Below are positions 1,371 to 62,428 of a stretch of 64,000 bases of DNA, piece by piece. The position numbers and the translations under genes are program-made. The notes under the pieces were generated by a model. It was not told where the DNA came from and made no database searches. It saw only the letters and a list, made by a program, of their open reading frames with translations. Origin of the DNA: Eledone cirrhosa (lineage: Eukaryota); NCBI GenBank assembly GCA_964016885.1, contig OZ024742.1:15996001-16060000 (forward strand), written 5' to 3'. Position 1 is the first letter of the stretch; each line of letters opens with the position of its first letter.

Positions 1371-1550
1371 ATGTATATGTATGTATGTATGTATATGTAT
1401 GTATGCATGTATATATATATGTATGTATGTATATATATGTAATATATGTATGTATATATATGTATGTATGTATATATATATATGTATGCATATACATGTA
1501 TGTATGTATATATATATGTGTATATATATATATATGTATATATATATATA
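1044..1550. repeat. Compound (TA)n/(CA)n/(TATG)n microsatellite
   Basis: Directly visible; source of the YI/HT/CV-rich pseudo-ORFs. Confidence 0.95.
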
Positions 1551-2280
1551 AACGGAAAAAATGAAACGAAATTTCATTTCCCACTCTTAGTACGGCTGGC
1601 AGTTAAATATAAGTATGTACACGTACATACATATATGTATACAGACATACAGTAGTATGTATATATACATACATGCACACATATATATATATGTAAGTAT
1701 GGATTCACCGAACATTTATTATAATTCTCGGTGTGTTTGTAAACAAACATCCCGTATTAAGCCTCGTTTGTTCAACACTGACAAAGGAACGCTGTACTAG
1801 TTTCAATCTTATTAGCTATCGTCAGTAACGTATACCTTCCTGCCAGATTGTTGAATGTATACACTTACCTTATGCACATTAACGGCTGAGTAGCCCAATT
1901 TGCATATCGAGTGGGTTAATCGGCCGGGTGCACCGAAAACGATAAACGGAAAAAATGAAACGAAATTTCATTTCACACTCTTAATACGGCTGTTACTTAA
2001 ATATAAGTATGTACACGTACATACATATATGTATACAGACATACAGTAGTATGTATATATATATATACATACATGCACACATATATATATATGTACGTAT
2101 GGATTCACCGAACATTTATTATAATGCTCGGTGTGTTTGTAAACAAACATCCCGTATTAAGCCGTAGTGTCCAGCAAACATCGTTGCTCGTTTGTTCAAC
2201 ACTGACAAAGGAACGATGTACTAGTTTCAAGCCGATTAACCCACTCGATAACCTACTCAGCCGTTAATATGCATAAGGTA
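1551..2280 (-). mobile_element. HHR-bearing repeat family B, ~1.6 tandem monomers plus a short inverted tip
   Basis: aacggaaaaaatgaaacgaaatttcatttc at 1551 and ~1946; ctagtttcaa at 1797 and 2221 (424 bp apart). 2231-2280 is inverted relative to ~1866-1925. Same family at 16740-17470 and 57601-57827. Confidence 0.75.
1789..1831 (-). ncRNA. Hammerhead ribozyme, family B, degenerate copy
   Basis: Minus strand reads acgtta-CTGACGA-t-agct-aata-agat-t-GAA-ACTAGT-A-cagcgt. Mismatches in the first helix I pair and in helix II relative to the 17158 copy. Confidence 0.65.
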
Positions 2281-3047: not shown

Positions 3048-4632
<1,585 letters not shown>

Positions 4633-5886: not shown

Positions 5887-6608
5887 TTCTGGTTTTATAA
5901 TTTCACAAAGTTTTACCAATAGAGAGAGAGTCGATTTCTAACATAAACACAAGACTCTCTCATTGGAATTTACACAACATCAACTAGGTAGATATGTATG
6001 TATGTATGCATGCATGTGTAGATATGGATGTTATTGTATGTGTGGATGTGTATGTTTGAGTTGTATGTGTGCATGTGTATATGCTTTGCATCTGTACATG
6101 TGCATATGCAGTTATTAGATGCAACATTTTTGGAATGTTTTACATATTTTTACTGTTTCATTAATGGATTGCTCTTGTAATTTCCTAACTAGTTGTGTTC
6201 TTTCTGTTCCTGTGAAGCCTAGCTTCTCAAGATTTGTATTGAGGTAGTTACTAACATATCCAAGTGCCCCAATAATCACAGGCATAAATCTGAAGGTGTA
6301 ATCAGGGTAGAGTATCTGCAGATTTCTCATCAGTTCTGCATAAATATTCTCCTTTTCACTAATCTTTGATATTATATTGGCATCTGCTGGGCAGCTAATT
6401 TCCACTACTGTGCATGCTTTCTTCTCCCTGTCCCATATCATAATATCTGGTCTGTTATGCCTGCATTTTATTGGGGCTTTTACTGGAACATTCCACCAGT
6501 ACTCTTTCATATTATGTACATGGATGTCTTCCACATTTCTGTAGCTTTTAATGTTTTTATTATCGAGGCTATCTTTTTTACGAACTCTATTGTACAGGCC
6601 ACTACATC

Positions 6609-6610
<2 letters not shown>
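5887..6610 (-). mobile_element. R4/Dong-type (RLE) non-LTR retrotransposon, 3' fragment
   Basis: ORF 6115-6534 has KCRHNRPDIMIWD..VVEISCP, the PD-(D/E) restriction-like endonuclease motif. The 3' UTR abuts a TATG repeat. Confidence 0.88.
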
Positions 6611-6639
<29 letters not shown>

Positions 6640-6700
6640 TGTATGTATGTATGTATGTATGTATGTATGTATGTATGTATGTATGTATGTATGTATGTAT

Positions 6701-7298
6701 GTCAGGTCACCAGTTGGTGCTACTGGTAACATGTATCCCAGTACAACCTGTCTCATGGTCGGGTCATTGACGACTAAACTGGCAACCCCACCAAGGTTTC
6801 TTGGTGAGGATGGTGACTTTGGACATCCTGCAGGACTAAAAACAAAACCTGTCAAAGGAGCTCTTAAGAGCCAATGGCCATCCAAAATCACCGGGAGAGA
6901 TGACCCCTTAGCCTTTGTCAAGGCAGAATTCTAGAAGGAAAACTCTGATATAACACCTGCAACCCTGATTGTATCCAATGATGTTGACTTGTTCTTCTTT
7001 TTGGTAAATATCATCTTGGTTAAGAGAGTGGGACTGGCTTTGTGCAGTGCCTTTGCTCACTATAAAGGCTTCACGGAACAGGCATTGCTTTATATCTGAA
7101 GATCTCTCTGCACTTGTCGTCACATGGTACCATGGGCTCAGCATTATGTGTCAATAATCGTCACAAGTGTAGTGTTTGTACCAGAGTTTTCAAGTCGCTG
7201 GCTGGAATAAAAAGTCACAATCGTTCAGCGCATCGGTAGGGGTTCTCCTACATGGATATAAAGTGGTGGCCGTACTCGAAAACGAGTTGGCAGCCACC
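6701..7298. mobile_element. Family S non-coding element (~600 bp) bounded by (TATG)n on both sides
   Basis: Near-identical to 60111-60717; terminal hairpin ggtggccg-tactcg-aaaa-cgagt-tggcagccacc. Confidence 0.8.
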
Positions 7299-7365
7299 AT
7301 GTATGTATGTATGTATGTATGTATGTATGTATGTATGTATGTATGTATGTATGTATGTATGTATG

Positions 7366-9778
7366 TTCTTCTGGTTTCATAATTTCACAAAGTTTTACCA
7401 ATAGAGAGAGAGTCGGTTTCTAACATAGACACAAGATTCTCATTGGAATTTACACAACATCAACTAGGTAGATATGTATGTATGCATGCATGTGTAGATA
7501 TGGATGTTATTGTATGTATGGATGTGTATGTTTTGAGTTGTATGTGTGCATGTGTATATGCTTTGTATCTGTACTGTGCATGTTTTCTTCTCCCTGTCCC
7601 ATATCATAATATCTGGTCTGTTATGCCTGCATTTTATTAGGGATTTTACTGGAACATTCCACCAGTACTCTTTCATATTATGTACGTGGATGTCTTCCAC
7701 ATTGTTGTAGCTTTTAATGTGTTTATTATCGGGGCTATCTTTTTTACGAACTGCATTGTACAATGTTTAGGCCACTACATCATGCCTCATAGGTAGATAG
7801 TACCGAGATGACATTTTTCGACAGCTGCTGATGACATGGGTGATATCCTCGATGTTAGTTCTGCAGAGTCTGCACTTGTTATCACATCTAGGTGTTTTGC
7901 CTGCATCCCTATCTCTTTTGTGAATCAGGTATTTCGTGCGAATCTCCTGTTCCTGTATTGCAAAAGCGTATCCTTCAAAGTGGGAGCCAATATAGCGGTT
8001 GTTGGTCCAAGATAGACTACTTTCCTTATCTATATTACTCTCACTCTGGAACTTTCTGGCAACATATCCATGCATGATTTTTTGCTGATAGGCATGCAGT
8101 TTTCCATCCATGGATTCACTGCGATCCTGCTGAGCGACTTCCCTGGGTGTGAGTTTTTGATTATCACACAGGGAATACCTCTCGAGGAGTTCCTTCCCAA
8201 CTCTCATGAACTTATCTGTTTCATGCAGATAGACTTGCTCGAGAGACGGGATCCTACGCTTCGAGGTTCGTAGATGTTGTCGGAGGGATATGATGCGACA
8301 ATCAAATGCTGTCTGGGCTGATGTTAGGCCTCTCCTCCCTGCTTATGTTTCAAGTAAAGGCGGTCTATGTCACTGTTGATGTGGAAGTTTCCGGTGTTGT
8401 TTAGTATTTTTCGAGTTCCAACATCAATCGCTCGGATTTCGTCTATCATCCAATTGAGTATTCCAAACGTTGGTGTTAGGACAGGCACAGCAAACACATT
8501 GTGAGCCACTGTTTTGTTTTGCGCAGAGAGTTCCGATGACCAAATCTTTCTTAATCGGGTGTAGTATTCCCTGGTTACGCGTTCCTTATTACAGTTACCA
8601 TTATAGGATATGTTCTCATCTATCCCCAGGTATCTGTAACAGTCCTCAACAGATATTGGTGAAATAGTTAGGCCATTGATGACAATGTTGCTAGATTGGG
8701 TTGTTGTTTTCCCCCGCTTTACAGTCATATATGAGCATTAATCTTGGCCAAACTCCATTCTGATATCCTTTGAGAACGTTGTAACCAGGTCAAGATTTTT
8801 CTTCATCCCATCCATGTTCTTGGCATAGAGTTTCAGATCGTCCACAAATAAATTATGGGTTAGGTTCGTATTTCTGTCCTCCTGTGAGCCAATGATGTAT
8901 CCCTCACATTTCTTGAGCAGAAAGGACAAGGGGTTTAATGACAAGATGAATAATATCACAGAGAGACTGTCCCCCTGAAATATACCCCTGCAATATTTTA
9001 TTTTATCAGTGAAAATAGAGTCCTCCCCTCTGTCTTTAACCTTAGGATAGTAGCACAAGAAGAAGACAGCCTCTCTATGACTGACAATAATGTCTGGGAC
9101 TTTAGCAAGTTGGAGGGCCTCTATCATCCAAGAGTGGGGAACAGAATCGAAAGCTTTCCTGTAGTCCAGCCAGACTGTAGCCATATTCCTCCTCAGTTGT
9201 CGCACCTCCGACATCACAGTTTTGTTGGCACATCGCCAAACCCCTTTCTTTCCAGTTGTTTGTTCATCTGTGATGATGTTATTATTTTCACAGTGATCTT
9301 GGAGGAATAGGTTCAGGCAGGCTGTATACATCTTATACATCAGGTACTGGCATGCAATGGGTCGGTAGTTTTTTGCCAAGTGGGTGTCTTTGTTCTTGGG
9401 GACCAGTAACGTTTGCGCTAATGTCAACCATTCTGGTATAAGTGTATCTCCCTTAAGAACATGTTGGTAGAGGTCAGTAAGATACCTCCGATAGAATATT
9501 AGTTTTTTGTACCAGTAGCCGACAATCATGTCTCTTCCTGGTGTTTTCTTATCTCGCAGTTTTCCTATCACAGTCTCAAGGGTACCCTCACTTATTTCGT
9601 ATGTTTTTGTTGTAGTGTAGGAGCAATAGATCTTTCGGATTTCTCTTAGCCACACTGCATCTTGGTTGAAATTCTTCTTTTCACACCATATTTTTCTCCA
9701 AAAGGAATCTATGTCTTTCTGGGATGGGGCCTCAGTGACACTTATTATTTTGCCCTTCATATCTCTATAGACCGATGT
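7366..9778 (-). mobile_element. R4/Dong-type RLE retrotransposon, decayed (RT, CCHC zinc knuckle, RLE)
   Basis: NYRPIAC, WLDYRKAFDSVPH, GIFQGDSLS, LFVDDLKLY (8738-9778); CRLC..EDITHVISSC and RHD (7767-8207); RPD (7464-7763). Frameshifted, and both ends lie in (TATG)n. Confidence 0.92.
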
Positions 9779-9850
9779 TATGTATGTATGTATGTATGTA
9801 TGTATGTATGTATGTATGTATGTATGTATGTATGTATGTATGTATGTATG

Positions 9851-9940
9851 TTTTCTCTTTCTCTTAATTTCGAGTATATTTTTTTGACCGGCCACCTTCC
9901 TGGTGGCAAGGTTGTAAAAGAAAAGAAATTGTCATCCCTT
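9851..9940 (-). mobile_element. 3' UTR tip of a second RLE family, between (TATG)n tracts
   Basis: Matches 60807-60899, which is attached to an RLE-coding fragment. Confidence 0.75.
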
Positions 9941-10084: not shown

Positions 10085-11711
10085 GTCAGCCCGGAGGTGC
10101 GGGTGGGGTTGTCGTTCTGCTGCAAAAACATCTGGGTCTCGCAACACAGATGGTACATTTGGACCCGGAGGGTCGACTAGTGGTTCTGGACCTTGGCAGT
10201 GGTAAAAGCGGAGCGTTTAGGTTGGCGGCCGGACTTCTTCCATCGTCTGGAGACTTTTCTAGGGACGTCCCGCTCCTTGTTATTAGTGGGGGACTGGAAT
10301 GGTATCCTAGATGCACGTTGGGACTACGTAGGGGCCTGTCCCGATAGAGAGGGGTGTAACAGCCTCAAAGGGTTAATCGGTCGATTTGACCTGGCCGATA
10401 GATATCGACTAGATTTTCCGACTGCGCCAACCTGGACTTGGGCAAATCGTAGCGGATCATCTAGGTCGTACCTAGATAGGTTCTTAGTTAGAATTAAGGA
10501 TAAGGACTTTTTAAGTTGTCCAAAAATGCGCATGGTTGGCTATTCAGACCACAAATTAGTGACCTGCATGGTCAACCTTGACAGAACTCATAGACAGGGA
10601 CCCGGTTACTGGAAGCTCAACTTGTCCTTACCGGCAAGTAAGGCTTACAGGGACAGGAGTAGCACTTTAGTTAAGGAGCGGTTGACGGGCACCATCATCA
10701 ACAGCAGGTGGTGGGGATCTCTCAAAAGAGAGATTAGAGTAGTCTCTATAGAATTTAGTAAGGAGTTAGCCTCAAATAGAAATAGGAAGGAAAGAGAGCT
10801 GGTAGATAGTGTAGAAGAGGCAATTAGAAGCGGCGACGTGGCCAGAGTGCTAGCGTCGAGAACGGCCCTGGGCCAGTTCTTCGACGCGAAACACGAAGGC
10901 TGCATCGTCCGAAGCAAAATACGTGCTCTGGGAAACGAGGGGACCAAAGCTGTTAGCTGGGCCCGCGTGACAGAAGCCAAAAGAGGGAGCAGATCCACTA
11001 TCCGGTCTTTGCGAGACCAGGATGGACGGGTGATCCTTGAACCTAAGCAGATGTGCGAGGCTTTTCAAAAGCACTTTGCCGGATTGTTCGGAAGGGGCGG
11101 GGAGCCGGTTGGGGATGTGGACTTCGGTCCATACCTCGACGGCCTGCCGCGTCTCTCGGACAGGGAGGCGAAGTCCTGCGAGGAGCCGATTTCAGCCGCT
11201 GAGATAGAGGACGTGCCCAACTAATGCGGCAAACGCAAATCCCCGGGTCTCGATGGTCTTCCATACGAACTATATCTAGCTATGCCGGACTTGTTCCCCG
11301 ATCTCCTCGAGGCGGTCTACTGCAACTGGCAACAGAACGGGAGCATTCCCTGTGCTATGACCAAGGGCGTAGTCACGCTAGTGAGGAAGGACGAGAACAA
11401 GGGGGACGATATAAATAATTTCAGGCCCATAACTCTGCTAAATACAGAGTTACAGATTTTGGCCAAGGTGCTAGCAAAGAGGTTGGCGCTTGTCGTGGGT
11501 AACTTGATGGGAGATGCGCAGACATGTGCTATCCCGTCCAGGTCCATCCACGACAACCTCCACCTCATGCGATACATCATAGAGAGGGTTGGGAACGAAC
11601 CCGGCTTTGGTGGGGCTCTGATCAACTTGGATCAATCTAAGGCATTTGATAGGGTCGACCATGGTTACCTGGATGCGGTGCTAGCGGCTGCAGGCTTCGG
11701 ACCCGTTTTCA
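10085..11711 (+). mobile_element. L1/Tx1-clade LINE ORF2 fragment (APE endonuclease and N-terminal RT), frameshifted
   Basis: GDWN, TWTW, SYLDRFLV, SDHKLV, GPGYWKLN (10193-11224); PGLDGLPYE, FRPITLLN, LDQSKAFDRVDH (to ~11711). Confidence 0.92.
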
Positions 11712-12598
11712 TAAATAAATTTCCCCTTCTTTCAGTAAATGAAAATACTCGGCATGGCTTAATTCGCCATGGGGCCCGGGGCGCGGCCGTTGTTTTAACC
11801 GCCAAATAGTACCTTTAAATTACAGAACAAATCGGAACTATTATATAATTAATTGTTAAACTGTTGAACTTTAAATTTTCTAACCTCTTTAATATTGAAT
11901 ATTGATTATTAAATTTTTTTAACTTCATGCTAGAAGTCTAAACACTGTAAAACACTGACTCCCAATATATTCATCTCCGCTAAGATGCGGGTCCCTGTGA
12001 ACATTTTCTCGCGCCACTCCTGGCTTGACTGTGGTCTGACATTAATATCGACCTTTCTTCCTCTTCCTTCCTTTCTATCTTCCTTCTTGTAGCCATTAAC
12101 CCTTACTTTTCTACTTCTCTCTTCCCTTCCTTCTCTCCTCTCCTCCTCCCGCAGACTTATCTTCCTTCCCCCTCTTGCTTGCCTATATCTGACCAGTAGT
12201 AGTTACCTTCCTCTTTTAGCTGACATTAACCCTGACTTCTCTTCTTCTTTCTTCCCCCTTCTTCTCCTTCCTTTCTTTCTTTCTTTTACCTTGTGTCATG
12301 GGATCGACGTTAACCTATGCTCCCATCTCTTTCTGTTTTCGTTCATCTGACCGGTAGCAGCATACTATAAAATTTAGCCACGTCACTCCAGGGCGACCGG
12401 CTGAGGTTGAAGGAACAGAATAGCGGTCGCCCTCGGGTCCCGATTTTCAGCCCCATGGATTTTACCTATTACATTCACGTATTATATTTCGAATACCTGA
12501 TGATATCACCGGATTCATACGGAACCCGGTCATTGAAATGATCATAGTATAATAAACCTTTCAAGGATTTACACAAATCCAGCCTCCTGTCATTTCAT

Positions 12599-12600: not shown

Positions 12601-12666
<66 letters not shown>

Positions 12667-12670
<4 letters not shown>

Positions 12671-13110
12671 TAAATCATGTCTATAGAATTATTATTATTA
12701 TTGGATATCTAAAAATTACGGATGAAACCATGGTAGAGATATAGTTACGGTATGTGCACATTTCTTCTAAGTTTGAATTTACACCTAATTCTGTATGGTT
12801 GATTGTATATTTGGTCAGTTTCTACATGCTGTCGAAATGTTGGATAAATACTCTATTGAGGCCGCCGCGAAGAGGCTACGTTCGGTTATTTGTCGGAGAT
12901 TTCTTCATAGGAGCCTTTATCCTTATAGCTTGGTCTAATTGATTTTTTATATGGTTAATTATGCTGATTGGCAGAGGAAATGGTATATATTTTATTTATC
13001 TAATAATTCTATAGACATGATTTATGATATATTGCTCTGATTATTTAATTTATTAATTATTCATAGAGCCACAAAGTAACCGGTTGTAACATATATAACT
13101 TTATGTATAT
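12667..13110. repeat. Unclassified dispersed repeat with a 28-bp inverted tip
   Basis: ~12700-13028 is homologous to ~56985-57318. 12667-12694 is the reverse complement of 13001-13028. Confidence 0.7.
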
Positions 13111-13357
13111 GTAAACCTTTATATATATAAAAACAAATAACGAAACGAAATTAAATTTCGTTTCGCTTCTAACTCACTTTTGTATGACTGACGCTTAAAC
13201 AATTAAGTTAAAGTGTACATCTACATATGTATACGGAAGTATTAGTATGCATATAAATACACACATGTATACATATGTACATGTACTCAGCTTTTCACTA
13301 GACACTTTACAGTGAGTGTCAGCTAGTCTGTATGTAACCACACAGGCGGACCGGGTT

Positions 13358-13394
13358 TTGCTGATGAGATGTAATAACATCGAAACTAGTCCAA
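13358..13394 (+). ncRNA. Hammerhead ribozyme, family D, copy 1 (helix I clipped to 3 bp by the inversion junction)
   Basis: ttg-CTGATGA-gatgt-aata-acatc-GAA-ACTAGT-C-caa. Confidence 0.8.
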
Positions 13395-13822
13395 TATTCC
13401 TGTCTGGCCCTCTGGAGAATAGAGGAAATGTGTTTCCTTGAAAACTCGTATGACTCTAAAACCCGGTCCGCCTGTGTGGTTACATACAGACTAGCTGACA
13501 CTCACTGTAAAGTGTCTAGTGAAAAGCTGAGTACATGTACATATGTATACATGTGTGTATTTATATGCATACTAATACTTCCGTATACATATGTAGATGT
13601 ACACTTTAACTTAATTGTTTAAGCGTCAGTCATACAAAAGTGAGTTAGAAGCGAAACGAAATTTAATTTCGTTTCGTTATTTGTTTTTATCGTTTCCGCT
13701 GAACCGGTGCGTACAATGACTCACGTTCTATGCAAATTAGTCTACCCACTACTAATTTTCATAGAAAAAGCATATAACGATATGTGCTTTTACAATTCTC
13801 CAGAGAAGCCGGAAGATGGGTA

Positions 13823-13867
13823 AATATTGCTGATGAGATGTAATAACATCGAAACTAGTCCAATATT
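13823..13867 (+). ncRNA. Hammerhead ribozyme, family D, copy 2 (textbook core)
   Basis: aatattg-CTGATGA-gatgt-aata-acatc-GAA-ACTAGT-C-caatatt: 7-bp helix I, 5-bp helix II, palindromic helix III, GUC site at 13860. Confidence 0.92.
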
Positions 13868-14085
13868 CCTGTCTGGCCCTCTGGAGAATAGAGGAAATGT
13901 GTTTCCTTGAAAACTCGTATGACTCTAAAACCCGGTCCGCCTGTGTGGTTACATACAGACTAGCTGACACTCACTGTAAAGTGTCTAGTGAAAAGCTGAG
14001 TACATGTACATATGTATACATGTGTGTATTTATATGCATACTAATACTTCCGTATACATATGTAGATGTACACTTTAACTTAATT

Positions 14086-14179
<94 letters not shown>

Positions 14180-14222
14180 ATATATATATATACATATACG
14201 TATATATATATGTTTATATGTA

Positions 14223-14277
<55 letters not shown>

Positions 14278-14397
14278 GGTGTTGGATGCTTAAAGCGTCC
14301 GTATGCGGTAGGTCGTATGAGCAGTCGATAATCTCATAGAGCATAGTATGATATGACAAAAAAAGAGAATCAGTGTTGCGACGAATGGAATTTAATG

Positions 14398-14493
14398 GAC
14401 ATATTACAATCGTTTCTCTGGCGACCAGCTCGAGATACGATCGATCTGATGATCGAACCTGACTCTGAAAATCGCAAGGTCCTCAGATACGTC
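14398..14493 (-). ncRNA. Hammerhead ribozyme, family E (long helix II)
   Basis: Reverse complement of the 15110-15205 motif: tcctcag at 14480-14486, tttc at 14413-14416. Confidence 0.75.
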
Positions 14494-15109
14494 TTGATTC
14501 TACGAAGCATATTTTCCTTGTGTCCTTTTACATCACTATCCTTCGCCTGTCGGCTTAGATCCTGTTGTTGTCGAAGGTATTTTTGATAAATCAAAAATAC
14601 CTTAGAAATAACCTTTTTTTGAAAGGCTGTTCCAAGCATTCATTTAAAAACGTTCTTTGTACAAAGTTTTTTTACTTTTGAAATATGTATGTTTTAAGGT
14701 ATCTTGAGGCTGTGTTCTTGAAACGTTATGCTAAATATTTTTCTAATTTGTTTAAAAAATTCCCTCCAAGCATTAATTACGGTGATTGTCGCATACAATA
14801 CAGCTGCGGGTGTGGACGTGATCGGTATGGACGAGGCCGCCTAAAGACAGAGAAGACGTCGAAGTGCCGTTGGAAGTTCAAGCATACAACCTATTACCTA
14901 CTACAGTAGTAATTCCGATCTAAGAAACAACTTTGATTGACAGGTGCAGGATGAAAAGAACCAAATAGTGGACAACCATGAGTGGCTAGAAATATCGATG
15001 ACGTGTACAATTCTTGACCACTCATAGAATGACAACAACAGGATCTAAGCCGACAGGCGAAGGATAGTGATGTAAAAGGACATAAGGAAAATCTGCTTCG
15101 TAGAATCAA

Positions 15110-15205
15110 GACGTATCTGAGGACCTTGCGATTTTCAGAGCCAGGTTCGATCATCACATCGATCGTGCCTCGAGCTGGTCGCCAGAGAAACGATTGTAAT
15201 ATGTC
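15110..15205 (+). ncRNA. Hammerhead ribozyme, family E (long helix II)
   Basis: gacgtat-CTGAGGA-c-cttgcga...tcgccag-a-GAA-ACGATTGT-A-atatgtc: 7-bp helix I with one G.U, near-palindromic helix III, GUA site at 15198. Confidence 0.78.
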
Positions 15206-15263
15206 CAATACATTTCATCGTCGCAACACTGATTCTCTTTTTTTCTATGATATATATATATAT

Positions 15264-16103: not shown

Positions 16104-16107
<4 letters not shown>

Positions 16108-16501
16108 GGTGTGGGATTCTTAAAGCGTCCGTAAGCGGTGTGCCGTTTGAGCACTCGATGTTCTGACAGAGAAGAGTATAATATCACATAAGGAAGGGAG
16201 AATCAGTGGTGCGAAGAATAAGATTGATTAGACATATTACAATCGTCTCCCCGGCGACCAGCTTGAGACACGATCGATGCGATGATCAGACCTGACTCTG
16301 AAATCGCAAGATCCTCAGATATGTCTCGATTCTACATTTGGAAACTCTGCTTCGTAGAATCGAGACATATCTGAGGATCTTGCGATTTCAGAGTCAGGTT
16401 TGATCATTGCACCGATCGTGCCTCGAGCTGGTCGCCAGGGAAACGATTGTAATATTACTAATAAATCTTATTCGTCGCACCACTGATTCTCCGTCTCTTA
16501 T

Positions 16502-16506
<5 letters not shown>
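16104..16506. mobile_element. Family E repeat, second inverted pair
   Basis: ~16198-16334 is the reverse complement of ~16354-16490. The minus-arm HHR (16231-16325) has GAAA changed to GAGA. Confidence 0.75.
16367..16455 (+). ncRNA. Hammerhead ribozyme, family E
   Basis: atat-CTGAGGA-tcttgcga...tcgccagg-GAA-ACGATTGT-A-atat. Confidence 0.7.
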
Positions 16507-16589
<83 letters not shown>

Positions 16590-16739: not shown

Positions 16740-17470
16740 CTAGTACAGCGTTCCTTTGTCAGTGTTGAACAAACGAGTAACGATGGCTGCTAGACACTGT
16801 ACGGCTTAATTCGGGATATTTGTTTACAAACACACCGAGCATTATAATAAATGTTCGGTGAATCCATACGTACATATATATATATATGTATGCATGTATA
16901 TATATATATATATATGTATATACATATATATACTACTGTACGTCTGTATACATATATGTATGTACGTATACATACTTATATTTAAGTAACAGCCGTACTA
17001 AGAGTGAGAAATGAAATTTCCTTTCATTTTTTCCGTTTATCGTTTTCGGTACCCCGGCCGATTAAATCACTGGATATGCAAATTAGGCTGCTCAGCCATT
17101 AATATGCATAAGGAAAGTTTATACTTTCAGACGTTCAACCATCTGGCAGGAAGGTATACGTTGCTGACGATAGCTAATAAGCTTGAAACTAGTACAGCGT
17201 TCCTTTGTCAGTGTTGAACAAACGAGCAACGATGGTTGCTAGACACTACGGCTTAATACGGGATGTTTGTTTACAAACACACCGAGCATTATAATAAATG
17301 TTCGGTGAATCCATACGTACATATATATATGTGTGCATGTATGTATATATATATATATATACATACTACTGTACGTCTGTATACATATATGTATGTACGT
17401 ATACATACTTATATTTAAGTAACAGCCGTACAAAGAGTGAGAAATGAAATTTCGTTTCATTTTTTCCCCA
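16740..17470 (+). mobile_element. Family B repeat, ~1.6 tandem 449-bp monomers
   Basis: tagtacagcgttcctttgtcag at 16741 and 17190; begins inside HHR helix III; (TA)n on both sides. Confidence 0.8.
17158..17200 (+). ncRNA. Type I hammerhead ribozyme, family B
   Basis: acgttg-CTGACGA-t-agct-aata-agct-t-GAA-ACTAGT-A-cagcgt: 6-bp helix I, GUA site at 17194. Confidence 0.85.
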
Positions 17471-56984: not shown

Positions 56985-57318
56985 ATAGGATATCTCAAAA
57001 CGCGAACGAAATCCGAGGGTAGAGACACAATCCTGGTAAGAGTGTACGCATTTCTTCTAACTCCAATTTTATACCTAATTGTGTATGGTTGACGATATAT
57101 TTAGTCGATTCCCACGTGCTGTTGAAATGTTGGGTACATATTCTATTGCGGTCGGCCGCGAAGAGGCTGCTGTCGTTTATTTATCAAATATTTCTTCATA
57201 GGAGCCTTTTATTCTTATAGCCTGGTCTAATTGAATTTTTATGTGGTTAATTATGCTAATTGGGAGAGGAAATGGTGTATATATTTTATCAGATGATTCT
57301 ATGGACATACTTGATGAT
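56985..57318. repeat. Dispersed repeat homologous to 12700-13028
   Basis: Shared blocks catttcttctaa, gccgcgaagaggct, tttcttcataggagccttt and gaggaaatggt. Confidence 0.7.
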
Positions 57319-57368
57319 ACATATATATATATATATATATATACATATATATACATATATATATATAC

Positions 57369-61284: not shown

Positions 61285-61364
61285 GTATGTATGTATGTAT
61301 GTATGTATGTATGTATGTATGTATGTATGTATGTATGTATGTATGTATGTATGTATGTGTGTAT

Positions 61365-61480
61365 GTTCTTCTGGTTTTATAATTTCACAAATTTATTCCC
61401 AATAGAGAGAGTCGGTTTCTAACATAGACACAAGACTCTCTGATTGGAATTTACACAACATTAACTAGGTAAATATGTCT
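61365..61480 (-). mobile_element. R4/Dong-type 3' UTR tip
   Basis: ttcttctggttttataatttcacaa...actaggta, as at 7366 and 58407. Confidence 0.8.
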
Positions 61481-61696
61481 GCATGTCTGCATGCGTGCGT
61501 GTGTATGAGTATATATATATATATATATATATATTGTTATACTTTGGGAGGGTCATGTTGCCAATAAGAAACACACGCACCAGTTGCTTTCACTTCAATT
61601 TATTATATATTTATAAATTTATAAATTTACAAATCTACAAACTTATAAATTTCTGGTTGGTTGGTTGGTTCCACAACCAGATAGTTGTTTATATAT

Positions 61697-61741
61697 AGTC
61701 ATAGTCCTTTCGTCACACACTCTGTGACCTCTTCAGTGACT
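61697..61741 (-). ncRNA. Hammerhead ribozyme, family H, in the PLE pLTR
   Basis: Minus strand reads agtca-CTGAAGA-g-gtcaca-gagtg-tgtgac-GAA-AGGACT-A-tgact, about 205 nt downstream of the GIY-YIG stop. Confidence 0.8.
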
Positions 61742-61945
61742 GGGGATTCCTTTCTTTGTTTCTGTGCCTTTCCTTTCTTCTGTCCTACGCCATTTTGTTT
61801 CTGTGTGTGTGTTGTGTGCTCAGTTTGCGCATGCGCCACATCCGGGTGTCTGTGTGTGTTTGTGTTCATTTATCTATTTGTTTATTTATTTACATGTTGT
61901 TGGTTGGTTGTTTGTTCTATGTGTGTGTGTGTTTTCATTTTGTCC

Positions 61946-62428
61946 TTAATTGTAAGTTGTGATGTTGCTGTTCCACTCAAATTTTCTATTTAATTTTGGT
62001 TGTAATTCTTTTATGCTTACTGCCTCTGTAATTTGCCTAAACATTGCATCTTTTCTGTGTGTGGATTCTATTTTTATTTCTATGTTCTCTAATTTACCCT
62101 TGTGTTCTATCTTAGCATGTTGGTAGAGTACAGATGATTCTTTATTATCTTGAAGGTCTCGCCAGTGTTCATTTATCCGTTCCCCTATACTACGAGCTGT
62201 CTCACCTATGTACACTATATTTTTGTTTCTACATTGTCCTTCGGTACATCTTATGCTATACACTACATTTCTAGTTTTACAGTTAATATGGGGGCTTATT
62301 TTACAGGTTATACATTTCTTATCTATACATGAGGGGCTTTGGAATGGGTATGTCTTGCTAATAAGTGTTTTTACGGAGGTACCTGGTCTTTCTACTATCT
62401 TAATATTGTTGTAATAATATTGCCAGAA
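61946..62428 (-). pseudogene. PLE GIY-YIG endonuclease domain, 5'-truncated, no RT
   Basis: The frame is open upstream of the listed ORF: KIVERPG..CIDKKCITC..NCKTRNVVYSIRC..YIGETARSIGERINEH..HA..EH..EAVSI..P.LN. Confidence 0.9.

What the first reader, a model, noticed from the sequence alone, without database searches (positions are those of the whole stretch)
13127..14090. Family D: two tandem hammerheads 469 nt apart predict a unit-length RNA or circRNA
Seen: identical cores at 13361 and 13830, GUC sites at 13391 and 13860, and no credible ORF between them. Inference: double cleavage releases a 469-nt monomer with 5'-OH and 2',3'-cyclic phosphate ends that an RtcB-type ligase could circularise, as in retrozymes. 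This is the best-preserved test case in the window.
Basis: partly seen in the sequence, partly recalled or inferred. Interest (0 to 1): 0.75.

Follow-up and report, generated by a model that had tools for sequence, protein, structure and literature searches.

The report
Penelope-pasted hammerhead retrozyme, first ribozyme damaged
This is one very young copy of a 469-base, protein-less repeat with about 900 exact copies of its predicted self-cutting RNA motif in this animal genome, likely pasted into TA repeats by a Penelope-type jumping gene (a known kind of element), but this copy's first ribozyme has lost one of its arms, so it is predicted to be a poor source of the proposed RNA circle.

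Summary
Observation confirmed: identical hammerhead cores at 13361 and 13830, GUC sites ending 13391 and 13860, no ORF. The 469-nt unit is a real family: 901 exact intact hammerheads genome-wide, arrays up to about 50 units, covarying helices in related families. It fits an animal non-LTR retrozyme. The inversion joint lies 3 nt before core 1 and removed its helix I strand. Helix III is the weak, dimer-dependent type, so double cutting here is predicted to be inefficient; intact arrays are better test cases. Junction reads cannot prove a circle, because the joint equals the genomic tandem. In 22 of 25 two-armed insertions one end lies near unit position 299 and the other near 227, as in a Penelope-like element of the same genome. 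One adenosine (unit position 25) is changed to T, G or C in 54 copies against 0 and 1 at neighbouring adenosines, possibly a fossil copying error at a modified RNA base. No RNA data; no partner element found. The scan has reported this class, and a 469-bp family, before on other DNA.

The parts
13119..13126 (.). short TA tract at the left end of the insertion (target)
   Evidence: sequence; flank printed
13127..13359 (-). inverted arm: unit positions 67-299 on the minus strand; its 3' end (13127) is the 'long' end, unit position 299
   Evidence: 233 nt, 100% complementary to 13458-13690; mapping
13358..13359 (.). head-to-head joint of the two arms, 2-nt overlap, 3 nt upstream of core 1
13358..14090 (+). 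direct arm: 1.56 units (unit positions 436-469, 1-469, 1-230); its 3' end (14090) is the 'short' end
   Evidence: no difference from the reference unit anywhere in the locus
13358..13398 (+). hammerhead 1: intact core (13361-13367), helix II (13368-13381), GUC 13389-13391; native helix I 5' strand missing
13392..13860 (+). 469-nt unit from cleavage site to cleavage site (predicted monomer or circle of the family)
13416..13416 (+). unit position 25 (also 13885): adenosine that is a family-wide substitution hot spot; unchanged in this copy
13652..13676 (+). perfect AT-rich hairpin inside the 70-nt 'tail' between the two preferred 3' ends; a similar hairpin precedes the 3' end in the related family at 17164 and 1825
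13730..13737 (+). ATGCAAAT octamer, kept in most related units (28 of 31 listed rows, some from overlapping loci); candidate internal promoter element (label recalled, untested)
13815..13873 (+). hammerhead 2, complete type I fold: helix I 7 bp + UA bulge + 6 bp, core 13830-13836, helix II 5 bp with AAUA loop, helix III 1 bp + CUAG, GUC 13858-13860
14089..14274 (.). (TA)n microsatellite at the right end (target)

Best explanation
The locus is a young, two-armed insertion of a 469-nt non-coding hammerhead repeat (an animal non-LTR retrozyme) that was likely copied into a TA tract by the reverse transcriptase and GIY-YIG endonuclease of a Penelope-like element, and whose own first hammerhead is predicted to be crippled. 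Shown: unit length, copy number, arrays, two-armed head-to-head layout, TA targets, two fixed 3' ends used one per arm, the same pattern in an autonomous GIY-YIG element of this genome, loss of helix I at hammerhead 1. Inferred: intact arrays elsewhere are transcribed; neighbouring hammerheads pair through the ACUAGU palindrome and cut at GUC; units are circularised by an RtcB-type ligase; the Penelope protein nicks both strands of a TA target and starts reverse transcription at unit position about 299 on one strand and about 227 on the other; each cDNA runs a variable distance through the cleavage joint (most likely round a circle, about 55%; otherwise along an uncut multimer); the two cDNAs are joined head to head. 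Arrays later also grow by DNA-level one- and two-unit duplications. This copy can at best cut site 1 (core 2 in the dimer fold) or site 2 (weak monomer fold); release of a monomer from it is predicted to be rare.
For: 901 exact intact hammerheads (475+426; reversed control 0); 38,524 matches to the wider motif (control 0); arrays of 49.5+2.8 and 14.7 units. 26 of 33 loci are two-armed and 48 of 60 3' ends are followed by (TA)3 within 6 nt. 22 of 25 two-armed loci have one long and one short end, 0 have two alike, 3 have one other end; second set: 13 of 19 long+short, 0 alike, 6 with an end elsewhere. An autonomous element with GIY-YIG and RT hits ends at +164 (19 rows) or +224/225 (17 rows) of 43 rows, at TA (overlapping loci counted more than once). 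Non-TA target duplications of 12-16 nt at 3 of 23 loci. PMC8557442 describes partial tandem + inverted copy + one-sided tail + (TA)n bias for PLEs; PMC11167929 shows both strands nicked and two internal RT start sites making the tail. Helices covary: 8 of 18 pairs change on both sides, 91% paired against 78% in shuffles and 37-47% when slid. Circle fold -155 against -95.7 +/- 5.2 kcal/mol (60 shuffles). 1 of 56 arm 5' ends lies within 5 nt of the cleavage site; 18 of the 25 arms not forced by my selection cross it. 13 of 15 locus-private fixed variants are in both arms; 5 of 15 are A>G against 27 of 250 singletons (p = 0.02).
Against: No autonomous element with a pLTR homologous to this unit was found (7 stretches; all loci then held; 30 of 10,595 GIY-YIG candidates), so the partner is inferred from scars only. 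No cleavage, expression or circle was observed. PMC11167929 found uncut RNA to be the main PLE substrate in vitro and cleavage unnecessary. In the retrozyme preprint only 1 of 9 predicted dimers cut in vitro. Variants shared by only some units (30 in one arm, 12 in both arms, against 93 fixed and 278 single) and period-2 and period-7 patterns do not fit a single monomer circle without later duplication or conversion. The covariation rests on a few related lineages. Folding energies ignore tertiary contacts and proteins.
Confidence: 0.75

Rival explanations
1. One reading: both hammerheads cut, a 469-nt monomer leaves and is circularised.
For: Both cores and GUC sites are intact. The replacement strand can still form 7 of 8 pairs, 2 of them G-U. 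In a nascent RNA starting at 13358 the unit's own ends pair (0.67-0.92) and the two palindromes pair at 0.04-0.05, so core 2 could cut site 1. A second transcript in trans or a protein could help (PLE hammerhead was protein-assisted).
Against: Local helix I of hammerhead 1 is predicted at 0.06 or less, and 0 once the inverted arm pairs; duplex -4.9 against -8.9 kcal/mol near the core, -17.9 against -33.1 overall. With the inverted arm in the transcript the cross helix is predicted at 0. In the dimer fold site 2 needs the lost strand. If the octamer marks an internal promoter, transcripts would start after core 1 (inference).
Confidence: 0.15
2. The family moves as a mini-Penelope: the PLE protein copies uncut multimeric transcripts of arrays; the hammerhead is regulatory or acts later, and circles are not the template.
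For: PMC11167929: hammerhead mutants insert normally, unprocessed RNA is the main substrate. Non-autonomous tandem Chlamys elements without canonical hammerheads exist. Mosaic and alternating unit haplotypes inside insertions. Weak helix III limits cutting.
Against: Hammerhead helices are kept by compensatory changes; the unit closes as a well-paired circle; locus-private variants are fixed in all units of both arms with an A>G excess (small numbers); one-unit DNA duplications explain many mosaics (L172, L174, L181).
Confidence: 0.3
3. The copies are orphan pLTR ends of a longer autonomous element not yet found, or a satellite spread at DNA level only.
For: PLE insertions are mostly 5'-truncated; DNA-level duplications are visible in arrays; only a small sample of PLE families was checked.
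Against: In all 33 loci the sequence upstream of the hammerhead is the unit itself or the joint, never an ORF; tandem units run end to end; dispersed copies have fixed 3' ends, TA targets and target duplications, which DNA-only spread does not give.
Confidence: 0.08

Closest known systems
Animal non-LTR retrozymes (Cervera and de la Pena 2020, PMC7229834; read parts 2-4 of 6 and passages; supplement not read)
   Same: Short non-coding tandem unit with one type I hammerhead per unit, GC under 50%, dispersed and arrayed copies, target duplications longer than 4 bp, well-paired predicted circle; hammerhead like axolotl HHR_Amex1 (one-pair helix III with palindromic tetraloop, dimer-dependent).
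   Different: Unit 469 nt, above the 170-400 nt tested there; the word 'inverted' does not occur in that main text, whereas two-armed inverted insertions with two fixed ends dominate here; expression and circles untested here.
Non-LTR retrozymes as non-autonomous PLE derivatives (Li, Clavereau, Pollet 2026, bioRxiv 10.64898/2026.07.22.740005; read parts 1-3 of 5)
   Same: Co-occurrence with active PLEs; unit lengths 51-972 bp cover 469; proposes PLE mobilisation.
   Different: They argue from pLTR homology in Xenopus; here no homologous pLTR was found, and the link is by insertion scars. By their rule (two consecutive units with complete hammerheads) this locus would not count as active.
EN+ Penelope-like elements: pLTR, inverted copy and tail (Craig et al. 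2021, PMC8557442, passages; Frangieh et al. 2024, PMC11167929, parts 1-3 of 4; Cervera and de la Pena 2014, PMC4209133, passages)
   Same: Partial tandem plus inverted 5'-truncated copy, tail on one side only, AT-rich or (TA)n targets, hammerhead upstream of the 3' ends.
   Different: No ORF; tail about 70 nt (30-40 nt described there; 60 nt in the PLE of this genome); canonical hammerhead with long bulged helix I rather than the minimal PLE type.

Membership tests
Type I hammerhead ribozyme (hammerhead 2) | Conserved core CUGANGA, GAAA, NUH with helices I and II | tested here: met
   Rfam HH9 E 1.2e-6 but under the curated cut-off; covariation
Type I hammerhead ribozyme (hammerhead 1) | Stable helix I closing the core | tested here: not met
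   native 5' strand replaced; pairing probability at most 0.06; 22.8 bits
Type I hammerhead ribozyme | Self-cleavage at the predicted site | not testable with these tools
   needs in vitro transcription
Non-LTR retrozyme | Short non-coding tandem unit with one type I hammerhead per unit | tested here: met
   469 nt, arrays to about 50 units, longest ORF 64 aa
Non-LTR retrozyme | Many dispersed copies, low GC, target duplication over 4 bp, no LTRs | tested here: met
   901 exact motifs; unit 37% GC; 12-16 nt duplications at 3 informative loci; PBS and PPT not searched
Non-LTR retrozyme | Predicted highly self-paired circle with the hammerhead free to fold | tested here: met
   69% paired, z -11.5, helix I 0.61-0.97
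Non-LTR retrozyme | Expressed as linear and circular unit-length RNA | not testable with these tools
   no run on record as RNA was offered (see Tried and rejected)
Non-LTR retrozyme, active copy (rule of Li et al. 2026) | Two consecutive complete hammerheads at the locus | tested here: not met
   only hammerhead 2 is complete here; met by other loci
PLE-mobilised element | Inverted 5'-truncated copy plus partial tandem | tested here: met
   26 of 33 loci
PLE-mobilised element | Tail at one end only (two fixed RT start sites) | tested here: met
   22 of 25 and 13 of 19 loci long+short, none alike
PLE-mobilised element | Homology to the pLTR of an autonomous partner | tested here: inconclusive
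   none; sample small
Autonomous PLE | RT + GIY-YIG ORF | tested here: not met
   no ORF in the unit
Viroid- or HDV-like RNA replicon | Ribozyme on both polarities | tested here: not met
   no CUGANGA on the minus strand of the unit; only the hammerhead core and Rfam families were sought

The most novel reading that the evidence does not exclude
The genome records the chemistry of the retrozyme RNA: adenosine 25, inside helix I, carries a base modification (m1A-like) that the Penelope reverse transcriptase misreads as T, G or C on some passes while two enzyme molecules, started at two fixed sites on the two nicked strands, run round an RNA circle. Genomic copies would then be a fossil map of an RNA modification and of rolling-circle Penelope retrotransposition.
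Probability: 0.25. Interest if true: 0.75.

Novelty: new member of a known kind. Interest (0 to 1): 0.45.

Why it matters
The family is useful for two open questions. First, who moves animal retrozymes: the papers read propose PLEs from co-occurrence and pLTR homology, while here the insertions carry the PLE two-start-site scar with a strict one-per-arm rule that an in vitro PLE system can test. Second, the hot spot at one adenosine is unexplained; if it is a misread RNA modification, inherited DNA would preserve an RNA mark other than A-to-I editing. My searches (search listings only) showed no paper on this for retrozymes; most subscription journals are not in the library.

Tried and rejected
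Expression: no RNA holder listed. Contigs of four runs laid on 13600-13990: X1 nothing; X3 689 contigs with many variants; X2 one 499-nt contig that closes the 469-nt cycle at depth 2.4, kind unknown, which fits a DNA tandem as well as a circle and is no evidence. Rfam at curated cut-offs: nothing. Partner search: negative; Pfam on the whole 1237-aa frame gave nothing, on its C-terminal parts weak RT and GIY-YIG hits. Cluster of six arm 5' ends at unit positions 433-441, just before the core, as in this locus: p = 0.13, not significant. Antisense hammerhead: none. Coding circle: rejected. Long arrays as proof of rolling circle: rejected, since one-unit duplications and 2- and 7-unit periods show DNA-level growth; dimeric circle templates stay undecided (L196 alternates in one arm only). 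Hot spot as plain A-to-I editing: disfavoured, T is as common as G; as an inherited subfamily variant: rejected, it is mosaic on at least six backgrounds. Newt satellite-2 snRNA-type promoter: recalled only; search and two look-ups gave no text. Rows dropped before the counts: L117 (duplicate of L116) and L129 (cut by the fetch, older subfamily); also L182 (under the identity limit); BIG1 was left out. The host was not identified; 'octopus-type' comes from earlier notes only. Empty-site test of this locus not done. Supplements of the papers were not read; those of PMC7229834 and the 2026 preprint may show inverted insertions.

Full report
Observation. The two cores start at 13361 and 13830 and the GUC triplets end at 13391 and 13860. 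The direct repeat is 264 nt at 100%. The unit has no ORF over 64 aa, also when read as a circle. A strict descriptor finds hammerhead 2 once and nothing in 100 shuffles; Rfam gives Hammerhead_HH9 at E 1.2e-6, under the curated cut-off.

Anatomy. Numbering the unit from the cleavage site, the locus is: TA tract, an inverted arm (unit 67-299, 13127-13359, minus strand), a 2-nt overlap, a direct arm (unit 436-469, 1-469, 1-230; 13358-14090), then (TA)n. The joint falls 3 nt before core 1. Hammerhead 2 has helix I of 7 bp, a UA bulge and 6 more pairs, helix II of 5 bp, and helix III of one pair around CUAG. Hammerhead 1 keeps the core but its helix I 5' strand is replaced by the end of the inverted arm: 7 of 8 pairs are possible but weak, predicted occupancy is 0.06 or less and zero once the 233-bp hairpin forms. 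PMC4209133 (passages) and PMC7229834 state that such helix III types cut poorly alone and work as dimers. In a dimer each core cuts the other's site. Core 2 could cut site 1 in a nascent RNA that starts at the joint (cross helix 0.67-0.92, palindrome 0.04-0.05) but not in one that includes the inverted arm; site 2 would need the lost strand or the weak monomer fold. Double cutting here is therefore predicted to be rare. This is a folding prediction, not an assay.

Family. The window lies in a 3.0-Gb genome. The junction region has 1,113 candidates (40 scored); the intact 45-nt hammerhead occurs 901 times and the wider motif 38,524 times, reversed controls 0. Arrays reach 49.5 units in one arm. 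Related families of 422-538 nt share the hammerhead, a hairpin before the 3' end and mostly an ATGCAAAT octamer. Over 15 distinct hammerheads, 8 of 18 pairs change on both sides (few independent lineages). The unit folds as a circle far below shuffles. This copy has no difference from the commonest unit of the largest array, so it is very young.

Insertion scars. 26 of 33 loci have two arms head to head; 48 of 60 3' ends run into TA. After dropping one duplicate and one cut locus, 22 of 25 two-armed loci have one end at unit 292-305 and one at 218-233, and none has two alike; a second set gave 13 of 19 with none alike. Three loci with non-TA flanks show 12-16 nt target duplications. A GIY-YIG fragment in the window (61949-62428) led to an abundant autonomous element (37,988 candidates) with long open frames, RT and GIY-YIG hits, hammerheads in its terminal repeats and inverted pairs; its ends lie at +164 or +224, at TA. 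This is the layout described for PLEs (PMC8557442), and PMC11167929 ties the tail to two internal RT start sites with both strands nicked and extended. No partner with a homologous pLTR was found, so PLE mobilisation is inferred from scars.

Template. Arm 5' ends do not pile up at the cleavage site (1 of 56) and 18 of 25 unselected arms cross it, so a simple cut monomer is not the template unless the enzyme jumps between ends. For a circle: 13 of 15 locus-private fixed variants are in both arms, and 5 of 15 are A>G against 27 of 250 singletons (p = 0.02, a test prompted by earlier notes). Against, or neutral: partly shared variants and 2- and 7-unit periods, many explained by one-unit DNA duplication, and the finding that uncut RNA is the main PLE substrate in vitro. 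I put the circle at about 55%.

Hot spot. Unit position 25 is variable within 5 of 24 unselected loci, more than any other site. Genome-wide it is changed in 54 copies (my count: 25 T, 23 G, 6 C, about 30 places) against 832 unchanged, while the neighbouring adenosines 27 and 28 are changed in 0 and 1. A sister subfamily repeats this: 144 against 7 (no denominator). The change is mosaic within loci on at least six backgrounds. Changes to all three bases, T first, are the m1A profile in 10.1101/648345 (passages). Against m1A: the base is predicted fully paired, G is nearly as common as T, neighbouring G residues also vary in some arrays, and the new base is usually the same within a locus, which needs later duplication, conversion or a multi-unit template. 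A structure-induced error a few bases into helix I is an equal rival. Unexplained.

Comparison and novelty. The family meets the sequence-level features of animal non-LTR retrozymes (PMC7229834; 10.64898/2026.07.22.740005); expression and cleavage are untested, and this locus fails the two-complete-hammerheads rule. My reading was written down before any note was seen. Earlier notes of the scan report the same class many times in this and other genomes, including a 469-bp family; a word search for the hot spot found none. These notes are leads, not support. Verdict: new member of a known kind, interest 0.45.

Noticed in passing
window 20468-51337: 46-bp satellite, 671 copies, 95% matches, strong G skew.
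   Followed up: no
window 61300-62428 (-), also 56622 (+): 3' end of an abundant young Penelope-like element: GIY-YIG with an upstream Cys cluster and a hammerhead in the terminal repeat; many copies with open frames over 1,100 aa stop to stop.
   Followed up: partly
window 16780-17470 (+) and 1550-2230 (-): Related hammerhead family, about 60% like this unit, 1.5-unit copies at TA; the copy at 1825 has a damaged helix I and II.
   Followed up: partly
window 17681 (-), 18026 and 18326 (+): A 310-nt tandem plus inverted hammerhead family.
   Followed up: no
window 14358-14572 and 15031-15244; 16106-16518: Another inverted-repeat family with CUGAGGA/CUGAUGA motifs right of the locus.
   Followed up: no
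window 62615 (-) and L035:839-2600: A second PLE family (51-68% protein identity to the first) with its own hammerhead.
   Followed up: partly
window 6100-9931 (-), 10181-11809 (+), 3086-4201 (+): Non-LTR retrotransposon fragments: RT, zf-RVT and endonuclease hits.
   Followed up: no
window 12661-13120: Left flank is itself a repeat (79% like 56985-57322) with a 32-nt inverted repeat; the element sits at its TA end.
   Followed up: no
L196, L197, L199, L119: Units alternate between two haplotypes along one arm: dimeric template or two-unit duplication.
   Followed up: partly
run X2 on 13600-13990: Single 499-nt contig closing the 469-nt cycle, with T at the hot-spot position 13885; depth 2.4 and kind of run unknown, so possibly an allele or error.
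   Followed up: no
L116 and L117: Two identical insertions 17.7 kb apart on C1: a recent segmental duplication or an assembly duplicate.
   Followed up: no
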